Shown here piece after piece: positions 5,526 through 13,461 of a stretch of 16,311 bases of DNA. The stretch is from a virus (Duplodnaviria; Heunggongvirae; Uroviricota; Caudoviricetes), in the IMG/VR virus record IMGVR_UViG_3300013307_000018, positions 1 through 16,311 of that record, one strand, 5' to 3'. The translations under genes were made by a program, and so were the position numbers. Within the stretch, counting starts at the first letter, position 1. The number at the start of each line of letters is the position of its first letter. Under the pieces are notes generated by a model. It worked only from the letters and a program-made list of their open reading frames with translations. It did not search any database and was not told where the DNA came from.

Positions 5526-7655
5526 ATGTTTGGCGGCGCACTCAATCGACTGTTAGGCAGCGTGGATGTTAACGAAGCCGGTAATGCCATCACTATCCTC
5601 GGGATGCCAGGCGAGGGATTCGGTAAGCAGGTTACCCAGGCATGGGGAACATCCAAAGTCATCGGTAACATGTTTAACCAAATCACCCCTTACAAACTGA
5701 GCTTCAACAAGTTCTTTGCCATCGATGTGTTGTACATGCTCCAGGAACTGGCTCGGCAACGTACGGTACACATCAACCGACGTGGGTTGGAGAAGGCCAT
5801 CGAGGAGATGCAGGCCAATACCTGGTTGTCGTCTATCTATCAGGTCACGCCCGATATCCTCAATCTCTCCAAAACCAATCTGTTTACTCGCACGCCACTG
5901 GAACACCAACAGCGCTTCCTGGAGCACTACAACTCCATGGTGCCGAAATACAACCTCAACGGGTATATGCTGGCCGCCAAACCGGGCGCCGGGAAGACAT
6001 TGACCGGGTTGATGTTAGGGGAGTGTCTGAACTCTGACGTGTTTGTGATTCTGTGCCCGATGAACGCGGTCAACAAAGTTTGGCGTAAAACGGTACTGGA
6101 AGAATACAAGAAACCCTACACGGAGAAAGACGTCTGGGTGTCGTCGGACAACAAACCCCTGGAGCGGGGCAAGCGGTTCTACATCTTCCATTACGAGTCC
6201 ATGCCCAAACTCAAAGACTTACTGGGGATGGTCTCAGGTAAACGCATCATCACCATCATTGACGAGTCCCATAACTTCAATGAGCAGAAATCCCAACGTA
6301 CCCAGCAACTGGTGGACTTTGTGCTGCGCAGTCGCTGCAAGCACACGCTGTGGGCCTCCGGTACCCCGGTGAAAGCACTGGGCTATGAGATGATTCCCTG
6401 TTTGACCACCATCGACCCGTTCTTTGATGCCAACACCGAAGACCGCTTTCGTAAAATCTACGGCAAGTCCGTCAGCAAGGCCGTGGATATTCTGCGCAAC
6501 CGTATCGGGTTGATTTCCTTTAAAGTCGATAAGCAGGAATTCACCAAAAAGCCCCCGATTGAAAAGTCAGTGAAAGTCACTATCCCGGACCCCAGTCGGT
6601 TTACGTTGACGCAAGTCCGCAAGGACATGGCTGATTTCATCTCCGAACAACTCAAGCACTATGAGAAAAACTTTTCTCTCTATGAGCGACAGTACAACGA
6701 TGGGGTGAAATACTACGCCAGCATGAAGCTGACTGACCAGCAGAAAAAAGAGCTGGATACGTACCGTCGCAACATCGCGATGATCCGTAAAGGCTACGAC
6801 CCGGCCACCATGAAGAACGAAGTGTTGTTCTGCAACAACATGGAACGGCGCAACATCCTGCCTGTGTTACCTCAACCGATGCGCAATGAATTCAAGAACG
6901 CCCGGTCGGTGGTGAAATATCTGGCCTTGAAAGTACAGGGTGAAGCATTGGGACGGGTGTTGGGTAAACGGCGTGCTGAGTGTAACGCGGCCTTGATAGC
7001 TCATGCGGGACTGCCCACGATTATCGACGACGCTGAGAAAAAGACCCTTATCTTTACCTCATTCGTGGATGTCGCTGAGCAGACCAAAACCTATCTGGAA
7101 CAACAGCGCTACAAAGTGTTGATTGTTCACCAGGGTACCAACAAAAACCTGGCGAGTATCATTGACCAGTTTGGGAACGATGAAGACATTGCTGTGTGCG
7201 TGGCGACCTTCCAGTCACTGTCTACGGCAGTGCCGGTTACCATGGCCAACAACGTGATACTGATGAACCAACCGTTTCGTGATTTCGAACGCGAACAGGC
7301 CATCAGTCGCTGTGACCGTATCGGCCAGGACAAACAGGTCTATGTGTGGAACGTGTTGTTGGACACCGGCAGTGAAGCCAACATCTCCACCCGGGCGGCA
7401 GATATTGTGCAGTGGTCACGCGAACAAGTCGCGGCCATCATGGGAACCAAAGTCATGGATGAAACGGCTGTGTCAACGGAATCCCTGCAAAATGCCCCAG
7501 AGCGGGTGTCTCTGGAGTTTTTGGCTGACCACGGCATAATGGTGACGCAGGAAAGCTTAGACGCCCTGGCTGACATTGCTTACGATGAGTTCCCACAGGA
7601 CGAACCGTTGGTGATGGCCAAAGCGTATGAGCGTCCGCGTTCTTCTCTGTGGTAA
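5526..7655 (+). CDS. SNF2-like superfamily-2 (DExH) helicase/translocase of phiKZ-like phages (709 aa)
   Basis: AAGGAG RBS. Motif I AAKPGAGKT, II IIDESH, III SGTP, IV LIFTSF, V STAVPVT, VI QAISRCDRIGQ. Confidence 0.9.
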   Translation: MFGGALNRLLGSVDVNEAGNAITILGMPGEGFGKQVTQAWGTSKVIGNMFNQITPYKLSFNKFFAIDVLYMLQELARQRTVHINRRGLEKAIEEMQANTWLSSIYQVTPDILNLSKTNLFTRTPLEHQQRFLEHYNSMVPKYNLNGYMLAAKPGAGKTLTGLMLGECLNSDVFVILCPMNAVNKVWRKTVLEEYKKPYTEKDVWVSSDNKPLERGKRFYIFHYESMPKLKDLLGMVSGKRIITIIDESHNFNEQKSQRTQQLVDFVLRSRCKHTLWASGTPVKALGYEMIPCLTTIDPFFDANTEDRFRKIYGKSVSKAVDILRNRIGLISFKVDKQEFTKKPPIEKSVKVTIPDPSRFTLTQVRKDMADFISEQLKHYEKNFSLYERQYNDGVKYYASMKLTDQQKKELDTYRRNIAMIRKGYDPATMKNEVLFCNNMERRNILPVLPQPMRNEFKNARSVVKYLALKVQGEALGRVLGKRRAECNAALIAHAGLPTIIDDAEKKTLIFTSFVDVAEQTKTYLEQQRYKVLIVHQGTNKNLASIIDQFGNDEDIAVCVATFQSLSTAVPVTMANNVILMNQPFRDFEREQAISRCDRIGQDKQVYVWNVLLDTGSEANISTRAADIVQWSREQVAAIMGTKVMDETAVSTESLQNAPERVSLEFLADHGIMVTQESLDALADIAYDEFPQDEPLVMAKAYERPRSSLW

Positions 7656-8187: not shown

Positions 8188-8763
8188 ATGGTAGCTTCAG
8201 TATGGAAACAACCCGGACGTGACGTAGTACTGGATCTTGTTTCTGCAGCGAACACCGGCTTTGAAGCGGTTCGTTCTTCTTTTGAGTTCACTACGGTTGC
8301 CTCACCTACGGCTGACGGCGCTGCGAAAAACTCAAAGGCTACCCTCAGCCCAACCGCTGAAGGTGCGGCCACGTACGAAGGTGACGTAGAAGTCACCTGG
8401 GACCGTCTGCAGCTCGAAGTGTATGTGGATGCCGTACTGACCGGTAACACGGTTGATTACGTACCGGATGCCGGTAACGGCAAACCACGTCTGGTTGAAG
8501 GTCTGACCCCAGCTGACATCGTGGGCGTACTGAATGCCGTGTTGGGTCTGCAGACCGTTGCAGCGGATTTCACCGCTGAGTCACTGACCGTTACCAAGGT
8601 CTCTGACACGGAGTTCACCATCACTCCAGTGGCGTCTGATGGCACGTTCCTGTTCCTGGGTTCAAGCACCATCACGTTCAACCAAGCCGTTGAGAAACAG
8701 CAGACCGCCTCTGTAGTTCAGAACACCGAACTTGACGGTCTGAATGCCCCGGTTGCCGGCTAA
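8188..8763 (+). CDS. phiKZ-type virion structural protein (191 aa)
   Basis: AGGAG RBS. Motifs W-x-Q-P...DL...N, Y-x-G-x-V-x-x-T-W-x-R-L-x-L, FTITP...LFLGS and the C-terminal ELDGLNAP are patterns I associate with paralogous virion proteins of phiKZ relatives. Confidence 0.7.
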   Translation: MVASVWKQPGRDVVLDLVSAANTGFEAVRSSFEFTTVASPTADGAAKNSKATLSPTAEGAATYEGDVEVTWDRLQLEVYVDAVLTGNTVDYVPDAGNGKPRLVEGLTPADIVGVLNAVLGLQTVAADFTAESLTVTKVSDTEFTITPVASDGTFLFLGSSTITFNQAVEKQQTASVVQNTELDGLNAPVAG

Positions 8764-8790
8764 CGGTAATTTGTAAGTGCATGAAAACTA

Positions 8791-8819
8791 TGGAGACCTT
8801 TGGGTCTCCATTTATGCCG
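8791..8819 (+). terminator. terminator hairpin followed by TTTATGCCG
   Basis: TGGAGACC-tttg-GGTCTCCA (perfect 8 bp) then TTTATGCCG, just after the stop at 8763. Confidence 0.75.
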
Positions 8820-8864
8820 TTCGGTATGGTGTGGGACTACTACCCGAAACTACAGGAGTGCGTT

Positions 8865-9416
8865 ATGGCCACGAACTGGAATCAACCACCCGCAGCAATC
8901 GTCACGGATTTGCTGGCTGATAAGAACACGAAGTTCTCCTCGACTGCGTCGTCTTTTGCCTTCAAAAACGTGGGACCCAATACCCAAGCTAACGCGACGT
9001 CGAAGAACACACAAATCACCGTGTATCCCACCGACACGACGAAATACTCGGGTGAGGTGATTGCGACGTACAGACGTGTGGAATTCCCGGCTTTCATGAA
9101 CAAGAAGACCGGGTCACCTACACCGACGGTGAGCTGGGGCCAGCAGACCGGACAGACCTTGGTTGCTGCGAGCACCACCAAAGCGCAATTGGTGAGTCTC
9201 ATCAATACGCTGTTTGGTTTGCAGTTATCCACAACTGACTACGCCACACTAACAGCCACCCTCGACGGGGGCTTCGTAAACATCGCTATCACGTTTGCGG
9301 ATGCTAACCTGGTGTTTGTACCCTCCGTCAGTGCAACGTTACGCTTAGACCAAACCACCCCAACCAGTGCCATCATTACAGCACCGGACCTGGATGGGTT
9401 GGACCTGCCTGCTTAA
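8865..9416 (+). CDS. phiKZ-type virion structural protein (183 aa), paralog of 8188-8763
   Basis: CAGGAG RBS precedes the ATG at 8865. The track start at 8781 would span the terminator. Motifs: WNQPPAAIVTDLL, YSGEVIATYRRV, DLDGLDLPA. Confidence 0.75.
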   Translation: MATNWNQPPAAIVTDLLADKNTKFSSTASSFAFKNVGPNTQANATSKNTQITVYPTDTTKYSGEVIATYRRVEFPAFMNKKTGSPTPTVSWGQQTGQTLVAASTTKAQLVSLINTLFGLQLSTTDYATLTATLDGGFVNIAITFADANLVFVPSVSATLRLDQTTPTSAIITAPDLDGLDLPA

Positions 9417-12511: not shown

Positions 12512-12539
12512 CGGCATAGATGGGAGGCCGAAGCCTCCC
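12512..12539 (-). terminator. UUCG hairpin followed by ATC-TATGCCG
   Basis: GGGAGGC-TTCG-GCCTCCC at 12522-12539, with no canonical U-tract directly after the stem. Confidence 0.75.
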
Positions 12540-12545
12540 GGACAA

Positions 12546-12797
12546 TCAGGCGTCACAGTACACAGGAATACGGTATTCCCCACAGGGGGCGGCTTCCATA
12601 ATCCAGGCCCACGTACTCGCAGGTTTTAGGCCTTTATCTTTGCCGTTGTAATACCCGGCGATGGAGCGGGTATCATCGGGGTTGGTCAGGTATACAGGCA
12701 CTGTCTCCGTCAGGGTTTTCACCGGGCATAAATACCGATTGAACTTACCATCCTTTAAGCGCTCAACATACCCGACAGGCTGCTCTGACCCGGCCAT
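12546..12797 (-). CDS. hypothetical protein with an internal [PI]-[VA]-G-Y...P-V-Y repeat (83 aa)
   Basis: The start overlaps the upstream stop (TAATG). QPVGY...VPVY is followed by SIAGY...IPVY. Confidence 0.7.
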   Translation of the reverse strand: MAGSEQPVGYVERLKDGKFNRYLCPVKTLTETVPVYLTNPDDTRSIAGYYNGKDKGLKPASTWAWIMEAAPCGEYRIPVYCDA

Positions 12798-12937
12798 TAG
12801 ATTTTACAGCCTTCGCAGTCAGCATCGTCGTCAGCAATGGCTTCGCCGCCAGCACTGCGTTTGGCATCAATCGCAGCTTCATCAATGTCCAGCGCGTCGA
12901 TGTTGTCGAAATCGATATTGTCTTGTGGGTTTGACAT
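12797..12937 (-). CDS. 46-aa acidic mini-protein ending in CEGCKI, resembling the RNR alpha C-terminal tail (not in the ORF track)
   Basis: MSNPQDNIDFDNIDALDIDEAAIDAKRSAGGEAIADDDADCEGCKI. It has an AGGA RBS, and its stop is coupled to the next ATG. Confidence 0.75.
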   Translation of the reverse strand: MSNPQDNIDFDNIDALDIDEAAIDAKRSAGGEAIADDDADCEGCKI

Positions 12938-12970
12938 CGTAGTGTTTCCTGTTATGAAAAAAGGGCATGT

Positions 12971-12986: not shown

Positions 12987-13014
12987 CAAAAAAATAAGGG
13001 AGCCGAAGCTCCCT
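12987..13014 (-). terminator. UUCG-loop terminator
   Basis: GGGAGC-TTCG-GCTCCC at 12998-13013, followed by a T-rich run. Confidence 0.85.
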
Positions 13015-13026
13015 GTAGACTGACCG

Positions 13027-13461
13027 TTATCGACCGGTGATATGGTCAACAATGGTCATGGACAACACACGGCACTCGTTCTCACGGTTGGTCTGTGTGG
13101 TGGCTTCAATCACGAAGGTGTCTTTCTTCTTCCCGATGGTGCGATGGACAGGGGATACCCAGATATCGCCACCTGCTGTGACGGTGTTCTGTCCACCAAC
13201 AGACGCCGGTATCAGAAACACGGTAGAGGATTTCTCCACGTATTCCACTTCACTGAAGCGCGCATCCATCTTGGCGTCTTTCTCACCGGCCGAGACCAGG
13301 TTGATAAGCTGTGCGGTCGCCGTGGCCACTTCACGCTGGCACTTCTCATTGGCAACCGGTACACCAGGAGCAACCGTTGAAGCCCCCGCTACTTTACTCA
13401 ACACAATGACTGCAACAACAGCAATACTGAACAGCAATTTACCGCAAATATCTTTAGACAT
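13027..13461 (-). CDS. signal-peptide or membrane-anchored hypothetical protein (144 aa)
   Basis: N-terminal K...LLFSIAVVAVIVLSKVAGA. Two cysteines in the soluble part (EKCQR, NECRV) could form a periplasmic disulfide. Confidence 0.75.
   Translation of the reverse strand: MSKDICGKLLFSIAVVAVIVLSKVAGASTVAPGVPVANEKCQREVATATAQLINLVSAGEKDAKMDARFSEVEYVEKSSTVFLIPASVGGQNTVTAGGDIWVSPVHRTIGKKKDTFVIEATTQTNRENECRVLSMTIVDHITGR

What the first reader, a model, noticed from the sequence alone, without database searches (positions are those of the whole stretch)
12797..12937. Free-standing mimic of the ribonucleotide reductase alpha C-terminal redox tail
Seen in sequence: a 46-aa, strongly acidic and probably disordered peptide ending DDDADCEGCKI, with its own RBS and candidate promoter, in a two-gene unit. 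No RNR gene is present in the window. Established: class Ia RNR alpha subunits end in a flexible acidic tail with a cysteine pair (E. coli NrdA ends CESGACKI) that carries electrons from thioredoxin or glutaredoxin to the active site, and the tail can act on the partner subunit. Inference: the peptide may be a tail supplied in trans for a tail-less (split) phage NrdA, a booster or competitor of host RNR, or a decoy that captures Trx/Grx. Any of these would be an unusual way to control dNTP supply.
Basis: partly seen in the sequence, partly recalled or inferred. Interest (0 to 1): 0.8.

Follow-up and report, generated by a model that had tools for sequence, protein, structure and literature searches.

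The report
Free-standing ribonucleotide reductase tail peptide
A giant phage with no ribonucleotide reductase of its own encodes a conserved 46-residue acidic peptide that ends in a copy of the two-cysteine electron-shuttle tail of that enzyme's large subunit, most likely to act on the host enzyme that makes DNA building blocks.

Summary
Window 12797-12937 (minus strand) encodes a real, conserved 46-aa acidic peptide (phrog_10239). It is translationally coupled to an 83-aa gene and bounded by hairpins.

Its last ~20 residues match the C-terminal redox tail of class Ia RNR alpha. T4-like coliphage Lw1 NrdA ends in the identical DCEGCKI, after the same G-x-G-E and acidic linker. Family members in Dickeya and Erwinia phages carry the host-type CESGAC or CEGGAC tail instead.

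"A tail for a split phage NrdA" is refuted. No RNR alpha gene was found in the window genome or in 23 other tail-bearing phage records searched, 19 of them at least 90% complete.

New context points to the host enzyme. Six complete sister jumbo phages carry a NrdB without NrdA, and the one compared is 77% identical to E. coli's. In three of them a GrxA-type glutaredoxin gene directly precedes the peptide gene. In a 90-kb phage the tail protein sits between a dCTP deaminase and a thioredoxin.

Best reading (about 0.5): a trans-acting alpha tail that carries electrons from glutaredoxin or thioredoxin to host NrdA. No biochemistry exists.

This scan has already noted the same family on other phage DNA (e1-128314, e1-136077, e1-261423). 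I found no paper describing it.

The parts
12797..12937 (-). Gene for the 46-aa acidic peptide, stop codon included; member of phrog_10239
   Evidence: ORF list and translation. phrog_10239 at E 2.8e-11 over its full length. 11 homologues among 1.8 billion representative proteins, all ending in DCEGCKI.
12854..12928 (-). Residues 4-28: acidic amphipathic segment with the conserved L-D-x-L-[ED]-[ILV]-D-E ... A-K-[RQ] motif, predicted helical
   Evidence: Alignments A1 and A3. AlphaFold2 helices at 4-7, 10-15 and 20-28, pLDDT 73-80.
12800..12853 (-). Residues 29-46: NrdA-type tail made of A-G-G-E, an acidic linker and D-C-E-G-C-K-I. Cys41 is at 12815-12817 and Cys44 at 12806-12808.
   Evidence: Identical to the end of phage NrdA proteins. 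hhalign P 3.9e-6. Predicted coil, pLDDT 57-60. Only synonymous codon variation in this stretch.
12946..12950 (-). Shine-Dalgarno AGGAA, 8 nt upstream of the ATG
   Evidence: Read directly from the sequence.
12546..12797 (-). 83-aa protein of unknown family, translationally coupled to the peptide gene by a TAATG overlap; has one invariant Cys in L-C-P-V-K-T
   Evidence: ORF list. The same pair is found in L003, L004 and L009/G004. Only three relatives in 5.8 billion proteins. No Pfam, PHROG or NCBIfam hit. AlphaFold2 pLDDT of 54 is not usable.
12997..13014 (-). Terminator hairpin with T-run of the upstream 144-aa gene; marks the 5' boundary of the two-gene unit
   Evidence: Terminator scan.
12522..12539 (-). 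GC-rich hairpin with a UUCG loop after the 83-aa gene, followed by TATGCCG; marks the 3' boundary of the unit
Evidence: Read from the sequence.

Best explanation
The gene encodes a detached, phage-type copy of the flexible C-terminal redox tail of class Ia ribonucleotide reductase alpha (NrdA).

The phage has no reductase of its own. The peptide is therefore proposed to act in trans on the host enzyme. Its Cys41/Cys44 pair would be reduced by a GrxA-type glutaredoxin or by thioredoxin; in this phage that would have to be the host's. It would then reduce the active-site disulfide of host NrdA after each turnover, sustaining or raising dNTP synthesis for replication of a roughly 260-kb genome. 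The conserved acidic helical N-terminal half would serve as the docking part.

What is shown: the gene is real and under purifying selection; its tail matches NrdA tails in sequence; carriers lack NrdA; sister phages link the peptide gene with glutaredoxin, thioredoxin, NrdB and dNTP-metabolism genes.

What is inferred: redox exchange with Grx or Trx, action on host NrdA, and the direction of the effect (boost rather than block).
For: 1. Tail identity.
- NrdA of Escherichia phage Lw1 and related contigs ends in ...R-D-G-A-G-E-(acidic)-D-C-E-G-C-K-I. A second, distant NrdA (L148, 755 aa; PF02867 E 1e-114, with ATP-cone) ends the same way.
- The peptide family ends in G-G-G-E-(acidic)-D-C-E-G-C-K-I.
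- hhalign of the family against 64 phage NrdA C-termini aligns residues 27-46 with the tail (87%, P 3.9e-6).

2. Family members recognised by their N-terminal half carry other NrdA-type tails.
- CESGACMI in Dickeya phage JA11 gp019, and CESGACEI in L275, a 253,323-bp record the size of JA29. CESGAC is the host sequence.
- CEGGACKI in L278, a 265,635-bp record the size of Erwinia phage pEa_SNUABM_7.
- CEGGGCII in G005.
- All 80 enterobacterial NrdA tails sampled end in DD[GD]CESGACKI.

3. Carriers lack the enzyme.
- PF02867 was found in none of G000-G005 and none of 19 further tail-bearing records, 15 of them at least 90% complete.
- A NrdA protein query also found nothing in the six nrdB-carrying records.

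4. Genomic context in independent lineages.
- Six complete jumbo phages have NrdB without NrdA. The one compared (G419) is 77% identical to E. coli NrdB (NF006576, 721 bits), and the four full-length ones read share the same alpha-binding C-terminus.
- In G412, G417 and G418 a GrxA-family glutaredoxin (NF008401, 90-98 bits, cut-off 84, for the G412, G417 and G411 genes scored) ends 2-3 nt before the peptide gene. In G411 it lies about 450 nt downstream.
- In a 90-kb phage the order is dCTP deaminase, tail protein (overlapping stop and start), an 82-aa ORF, then thioredoxin.
- In Yoloswag and JA11 the gene lies within 2-5 genes of a (d)CMP deaminase and thymidylate synthase.

5. Established knowledge. 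The alpha tail already acts on the other protomer of the dimer and is reduced by Trx or Grx (PMC4078304). GrxA (Grx1) is a physiological reductant of E. coli NrdA (my knowledge).
Against: - There is no biochemical or genetic test of any step.
- The window phage and its complete relative G004 have only the peptide and the unknown 83-aa partner. They have no NrdB, Grx or Trx. The strongest context therefore comes from sister lineages and is transferred here by homology.
- Host NrdA keeps its own tail at high local concentration, so the benefit of an extra free tail is unclear.
- The same tail is fused to an Acb4-family anti-CBASS sponge domain in N4-like Erwinia phages. The RNR model does not explain this.
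- Absence of RNR is a lineage trait: phage Eowyn lacks both RNR and the peptide. The anticorrelation is therefore weak evidence.
- Profile A1 does not reach E. coli NrdA in PDB sequences at E of 10 or less. The similarity rests on about 20 residues.
Confidence: 0.5

Rival explanations
1. Competitor or decoy. The free tail soaks up reduced Grx or Trx, or occupies the site on NrdA where the tail acts. This would lower host RNR activity or redirect reducing power, comparable to small disordered RNR inhibitors or to the toxic free C-terminal domain of Neurospora UN-24.
For: - The tail sequence is identical to a genuine redoxin substrate.
- There is a precedent: a free RNR-alpha C-terminal domain forms a non-reducible complex with Rnr1 and is toxic in trans (PMC3618301).
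- The E and G between the cysteines are more strictly conserved in the free peptides than in close NrdA relatives, which show DCAGCKI, DCVGCKI and SCEGCKI. This suggests tight recognition by a partner.
Against: - Carriers have no RNR of their own, so they depend on host RNR or on salvage.
- Sister carriers add a host-like NrdB and a Grx. This makes sense only if host NrdA is kept working.
Confidence: 0.15
2. Portable redoxin-docking tag with a role outside RNR. The tail recruits host Grx or Trx to whatever it is attached to or co-expressed with, such as the 83-aa partner or the Acb4-like sponge. The purpose could be to keep a cysteine reduced or to take part in anti-defence.
For: - The same tail occurs on unrelated N-terminal domains: PF13876/Acb4 family, and three or more unknown domains.
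- In this window it is coupled to an unknown 83-aa protein with one invariant Cys.
Against: - The context in three lineages is nucleotide metabolism plus a redoxin.
- The tail variants track the NrdA repertoire exactly.
- No non-RNR target is known.
Confidence: 0.15
3. Metal-binding or dimerising CxxC end, or a DNA-mimic acidic peptide. On this reading the resemblance to NrdA tails is convergent.
For: - The composition is very acidic.
- The long forms have hyper-acidic linkers.
- Two CxxC motifs from two chains could bind a Zn ion (my inference).
Against: - The match is exact over 7 residues and includes the G-x-G-E start of the tail.
- The family switches between CX2C and CX4C spacing just as NrdA does. 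Such switching is unlikely for a metal site.
- A glutaredoxin gene lies next to the peptide gene.
Confidence: 0.07
4. Detached tail serving a tail-less (split) NrdA encoded by the phage itself.
For: Detached tails next to tail-less nrdA genes were reported by earlier notes of this scan in Saccharibacteria (not checked here). Split nrdA genes exist in phages (PMC3045599).
Against: - No PF02867, PF13597 or PF00268 in the window genome or in complete relatives.
- The window record is only 69% complete. However, its complete syntenic relative G004 (278 kb, terminal repeats) also has none.
Confidence: 0.02

Closest known systems
C-terminal redox tail of class Ia RNR alpha: E. coli NrdA Cys754/Cys759, ...DDGCESGACKI; phage Lw1 NrdA, ...DGAGEDEAEDCEGCKI
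   Same: It lies at the extreme C-terminus. It has a Cys pair spaced by 2 or 4 residues followed by K-I. It has an acidic, disordered linker that starts with G-x-G-E. The last seven residues are identical to Lw1-type NrdA.
   Different: It is not attached to the catalytic barrel. It is a 46-aa protein with its own conserved helical N-terminal half, in phages without any NrdA.
Split RNR large subunits: Aeromonas phage Aeh1 NrdA split by a homing endonuclease gene (PMC3045599); Pseudomonas NrdJa/NrdJb (my knowledge)
   Same: Part of the RNR large subunit is encoded as a separate polypeptide.
   Different: In those cases both pieces are encoded side by side and reassemble into one enzyme. Here the body of the enzyme is absent from the phage and would have to be the host's.
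Phages that carry nrdB only (noted, unexplained, in PMC3653736)
   Same: Six tail-bearing jumbo phages have NrdB but no NrdA.
   Different: That paper does not mention a tail peptide or a glutaredoxin. The window phage itself has no nrdB.
Small disordered RNR regulators Sml1 and Spd1 of yeasts (Zhang et al. 2007, cited in PMC4078304; my knowledge)
   Same: A small, disordered protein acting on the regeneration step that involves the alpha C-terminal tail.
   Different: There is no sequence relation. Sml1 has no Cys-pair tail and is an inhibitor. The direction of the effect here is unknown.
UN-24 PA incompatibility domain of Neurospora RNR alpha (PMC3618301)
   Same: A free C-terminal piece of RNR alpha that acts in trans on the RNR large subunit.
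   Different: It is a 135-aa eukaryotic domain, toxic, forming a non-reducible complex. It is not a natural separate gene.
Phage T4 NrdC, a phage glutaredoxin-type reductant dedicated to the phage RNR (my knowledge)
   Same: A phage supplies its own component of the RNR thiol relay. Sister phages here carry a GrxA-type gene beside the peptide gene.
   Different: T4 also encodes NrdA and NrdB. NrdC is a folded redoxin, not a tail.

Membership tests
phrog_10239 (phage protein family, unknown function) | Full-length match to the 47-position profile | tested here: met
   E 2.8e-11, residues 1-46 against profile positions 1-47. Other short tail peptides (L104, L108, L118, L130, L278) hit the same profile.
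Class Ia RNR alpha (NrdA) C-terminal redox tail | Cys pair spaced by 2 or 4 residues, two residues from the C-terminus, ending K-[ILV] | tested here: met
   C41-E-G-C44-K-I-stop. 64 distinct phage NrdA ends show C-x2/4-C, with K-[ILV] the commonest ending. Identical DCEGCKI is found in Lw1-type and L148-type NrdA.
Class Ia RNR alpha (NrdA) C-terminal redox tail | Acidic, flexible linker between the end of the barrel (R-D-G-x-G-E) and the Cys pair | tested here: met
   A-G-G-E followed by A-I-A-D-D-D-A. hhalign aligns residues 27-46 with the NrdA tail, P 3.9e-6. Predicted coil with pLDDT 57-60.
Class Ia RNR alpha (NrdA) C-terminal redox tail | Covalently attached to the RNR catalytic barrel (PF02867) | tested here: not met
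   A 46-aa protein. No PF02867 in the genome or in relatives. It is therefore not a NrdA but a detached analogue or homologue of its tail.
Class Ia RNR alpha (NrdA) C-terminal redox tail | Thiol-disulfide exchange with Trx or Grx and with the active-site Cys pair of NrdA | not testable with these tools
   Only indirect evidence: a GrxA-type gene lies directly upstream of the peptide gene in G412, G417 and G418, and a Trx gene lies nearby in G415.
Split (two-piece) RNR large subunit | A tail-less RNR alpha gene in the same genome | tested here: not met
   No class I, II or III large subunit in G000 or G002-G005.
DNA-mimic or anti-restriction acidic proteins (Ocr/ArdA type) | Folded acidic surface that mimics DNA; family match | tested here: not met
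   No Pfam hit. Half of the peptide is predicted coil. The conserved part is the Cys tail, not the charge pattern.

The most novel reading that the evidence does not exclude
A group of enterobacterial phages runs an 'alpha-less RNR kit'. They take over the host's NrdA catalytic body by supplying up to three detachable parts: a host-like NrdB, a GrxA-type glutaredoxin, and a free alpha tail that shuttles electrons between them. The window phage keeps only the tail peptide.

The peptide's conserved N-terminal motif (L-D-x-L-[ED]-[ILV]) has the same pattern as the last six residues of NrdB, which bind alpha. It may be the docking element that places the tail on host NrdA.
Probability: 0.3. Interest if true: 0.85.

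Novelty: new variant of a known kind. Interest (0 to 1): 0.72.

Why it matters
RNR is the bottleneck of DNA-precursor supply, and phages are known either to bring a whole RNR or to rely on the host's. A free-standing alpha tail would be a third strategy: modifying the host enzyme with a detachable part.

It would also give a natural example of the alpha tail working as a separate polypeptide. That would make the poorly resolved re-reduction step of class Ia RNR directly testable with a 46-residue peptide.

It may explain phages that carry nrdB only, which were noted but left open in PMC3653736. It also fits recent reports that phage NrdAB triggers reverse-transcriptase defences by raising dNTP levels (10.64898/2026.10.27.754916). 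That could be a reason to avoid carrying a full RNR.

The family occurs in cultured phages of Erwinia, Dickeya and Pantoea (Yoloswag gp34, pEa_SNUABM_5 gp34, JA11 gp019, AAM37, phiEaP8), so experiments are possible.

Tried and rejected
- Megablast of the locus against phage and plasmid collections found no match. tblastn of the 46-aa peptide against phages also found none, probably because of the low-complexity filter; longer homologues did find Yoloswag and pEa_SNUABM_5.
- The word-index protein search found only the peptide itself. The exhaustive HMMER search was needed.
- The profile of the family against PDB sequences gave no RNR chain at E of 10 or less. The 'longer' protein search gave no RNR. 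The link to NrdA came only from the DNA pattern scan.
- About 55 of the 91 pattern hits are an antisense shadow frame of a phrog_129 regulator gene in roughly 40-kb prophages. They were discarded.
- Complex prediction of E. coli NrdA(1-735) with the peptide alignment gave no verdict (score 0.29, mark 0.32). This counts neither for nor against binding.
- AlphaFold2 of the 83-aa partner gave pLDDT 54, too poor for a fold search. The ESM Atlas gave nothing for it.
- The 83-aa partner has no relatives in IMG/VR by pattern scan.
- A double-glycine leader (RiPP precursor) reading was rejected. The residues before G-G do not fit the leader consensus, and no maturation genes lie nearby (reasoned from sequence).
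- A CaaX-type or PDZ-ligand reading was considered and dropped for lack of any supporting feature.
- The RNR-absence anticorrelation is of limited weight, because Eowyn lacks both RNR and the peptide.

Full report
**What is in the window**

On the minus strand, 12797-12937 is an ATG ORF of 46 codons. It is preceded by AGGAA at 12946-12950 and ends in ...DDDADCEGCKI followed by TAA. The product has 14 acidic and 3 basic residues and a pI of about 4.05.

Its stop overlaps the start of an 83-aa ORF at 12546-12797 as TAATG. A hairpin with a T-run (12997-13014) closes the upstream gene, and a GC hairpin with a UUCG loop (12522-12539) follows the 83-aa ORF. The 'two-gene unit' is therefore real. A sigma-70 promoter is not detectable on that strand.

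**The phage**

The window is the first 16.3 kb of a 185,970-bp IMG/VR virus record, judged 69% complete, with 51.9% G+C. Its SNF2 helicase is closest (53-54% identity) to Klebsiella phage Eowyn and to the 'Serratia phage' KpHz_2 and KpGz_1 records. These are phiKZ-like jumbo phages, and Eowyn carries a tubulin gene.

**The gene is real and conserved**

The peptide matches phrog_10239 end to end (E 2.8e-11). An exhaustive HMMER search of 1.8 billion representative proteins gave 11 hits. Ten end in DCEGCKI with G-G-G-E about 12 residues upstream; the eleventh is a 1112-aa protein matched internally and was set aside.

The module stands alone at 44-64 aa, or forms the C-terminus of 90-233-aa proteins with unrelated or hyper-acidic N-terminal parts. 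The last seven residues never change, while their codons vary at synonymous positions. AlphaFold2 predicts short helices at residues 4-28 and a coil tail at 29-46.

Named carriers:
- Erwinia phage Yoloswag gp34 and pEa_SNUABM_5 gp34.
- Dickeya phage JA11 gp019.
- Pantoea phage AAM37.
- Erwinia N4-like phage phiEaP8, as a fusion protein.

**The tail is an NrdA tail**

A scan of IMG/VR for DNA encoding DCEGCKI followed by a stop gave 91 stretches.
- About 55 are an antisense shadow frame of a regulator gene and were discarded.
- Four are genuine class Ia NrdA genes (PF02867 E 1e-114 to 1e-122, with PF00317 and an ATP-cone). Their proteins end in ...R-D-G-A-G-E-(acidic)-DCEGCKI or ...E-D-G-A-G-E-(acidic)-DCEGCKI. 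One of them is Escherichia phage Lw1.

Sixty-four distinct phage NrdA ends show the general rule: D-G-x-G-[ED], an acidic linker, C-x2 or x4-C, and most often K-[ILV]. The peptide's A-G-G-E, acidic linker and DCEGCKI fit this rule. hhalign of the family against the NrdA C-termini aligns residues 27-46 with the tail (87%, P 3.9e-6).

E. coli NrdA ends in ...DDGCESGACKI. All 80 Enterobacteriaceae and Erwiniaceae tails sampled end in DD[GD]CESGACKI.

Homologues recognised by their N-terminal half carry other tails from the same repertoire:
- CESGACMI in JA11, and CESGACEI in L275, a 253,323-bp record the size of JA29. The CESGAC core is the host sequence.
- CEGGACKI in L278, a 265,635-bp record the size of pEa_SNUABM_7.
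- CEGGGCII in G005.

CEGCKI followed by a stop was not found in 401 sampled gammaproteobacterial genomes. It is therefore a phage version of the tail and not background.

**No phage reductase**

PF02867 (class I and II large subunit), PF13597 (class III), PF00268 (NrdB), thioredoxin and glutaredoxin were found in none of the window genome and four relatives at least 99% complete. One of these is G004, a 278-kb genome with terminal repeats that has the same peptide plus 83-aa gene pair and the same neighbours. The 75%-complete G001 was tested for PF02867 only and is also negative.

Nineteen further records with a non-NrdA DCEGCKI tail, 15 of them at least 90% complete, also lack PF02867. The idea of a tail supplied to a split phage NrdA is therefore refuted here.

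The anticorrelation itself carries little weight, because Eowyn has neither RNR nor the peptide.

**Context that points to host RNR**

Six complete tail-bearing jumbo phages do encode NrdB, while a NrdA protein query finds nothing in them. The NrdB of G419 is 77% identical to E. coli NrdB (NF006576, 721 bits). The four full-length ones read keep the same C-terminal alpha-binding tail, and the G419 alignment also shows the Tyr of S-Y-T-H-I-I. With no phage alpha, such a beta can only pair with host NrdA.

In G412, G417 and G418 a glutaredoxin gene ends 2-3 nt before the peptide gene. In G411 the two lie about 450 nt apart. The G412, G417 and G411 glutaredoxins score as GrxA-family (NF008401, 90-98 bits, cut-off 84). 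Grx1 is a physiological reductant of the E. coli NrdA tail (my knowledge).

In an unrelated 90-kb phage (G415) the order is a dCTP deaminase-like gene, a 71-aa tail protein with overlapping stop and start, an 82-aa ORF, then thioredoxin.

In Yoloswag and JA11 the gene lies within 2-5 genes of a (d)CMP deaminase and thymidylate synthase. In the window genome a thymidine kinase lies 4.4 kb upstream.

**Most likely mechanism**

The alpha tail normally reduces the active site of the partner protomer and is itself reduced by Trx or Grx (PMC4078304). A free copy could do the same in trans on host NrdA, drawing on a phage Grx where one is present and on host redoxins in this phage.

I put this at about 0.5. 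The broader claim, that the peptide belongs to the RNR thiol relay in some role, I put at about 0.8.

Weak points:
- There is no biochemistry.
- The window lineage has only the peptide and an unknown 83-aa partner.
- The host enzyme already has its own tail.
- The same tail is fused to an Acb4-family anti-CBASS sponge domain (PF13876; PDB 9e4w at E 0.004-0.02; 10.1101/2024.12.30.630793) in phiEaP8-like phages. The model does not explain this.

Rival readings are a competitor or decoy (precedent: the toxic free UN-24 C-terminal domain, PMC3618301), a general redoxin-docking tag, and a metal-binding end.

**Comparison with what is known, and novelty**

Split nrdA genes (PMC3045599) and nrdB-only phages (PMC3653736: 'two phages only contain nrdB', function unknown) have been described. 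I found no paper on a free-standing alpha tail in seven literature searches.

Earlier notes of this same scan describe the same kind of peptide in other phage genomes, and detached tails next to tail-less nrdA genes in Saccharibacteria. The family is therefore not new to the scan. My results agree with those notes and add three things: the exact NrdA counterpart, the host-type tail variants, and the Grx, NrdB, Trx and dCTP deaminase contexts.

I class it as a new variant of a known kind: a known functional element of RNR encoded as an independent phage protein.

**What did not work**

Complex prediction of NrdA with the peptide gave no verdict. The fold of the 83-aa partner could not be predicted.

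Noticed in passing
L165:417-758 (Erwinia phage phiEaP8); also L134:1913-2266, L175:5055-5408, L125:1753-2106: Acb4-family (PF13876, anti-CBASS sponge) domain proteins carry the same DCEGCKI tail after an A-N-D-L-V-x-x-L linker. Why a nucleotide-signal sponge would bear an RNR-type redox tail is unexplained.
   Followed up: partly
G411, G412, G417, G418, G419, G422 (loci L279-L282, L287): Complete 260-287-kb phages encode a class Ia NrdB but no NrdA. The one compared is 77% identical to E. coli NrdB. In G411 and G417 the nrdB match is in two pieces about 290 to 1000 bp apart, which may mean an intron or a homing-endonuclease insertion.
   Followed up: partly
window 12512-12518 (minus), after the hairpin at 12522-12539: TATGCCG heptamer directly after the terminator-like hairpin of the two-gene unit. 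It may be a phage promoter or processing signal.
   Followed up: no
L102:6839-7240 and about 55 further IMG/VR prophage contigs: A 133-aa frame ending in DCEGCKI is the antisense shadow of a conserved phrog_129 transcriptional regulator gene (L102 6895-7416, minus). It is a chance match copied many times and a trap for motif scans.
   Followed up: yes
P0007, P0014-P0018 (pEa_SNUABM_5 gp34 and relatives): The long forms of the family have a conserved helical N-domain (P-I-E-Y-Y-V-A-E-A-K-R-L-G-L...) and a 60-120-residue linker that is almost entirely Asp and Glu, before the tail module.
   Followed up: no
window 8188-8763 and 8781-9416 (plus strand): Two adjacent paralogous virion structural protein genes (phrog_1037 and phrog_2935; DUF7941 in the longer contig's annotation), next to an SNF2-type helicase at 5526-7655.
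   Followed up: no
window 13027-13461 (minus): The 144-aa protein upstream of the peptide gene has an N-terminal hydrophobic, signal-like segment and no family match. It is conserved in L003 and L009.
   Followed up: no
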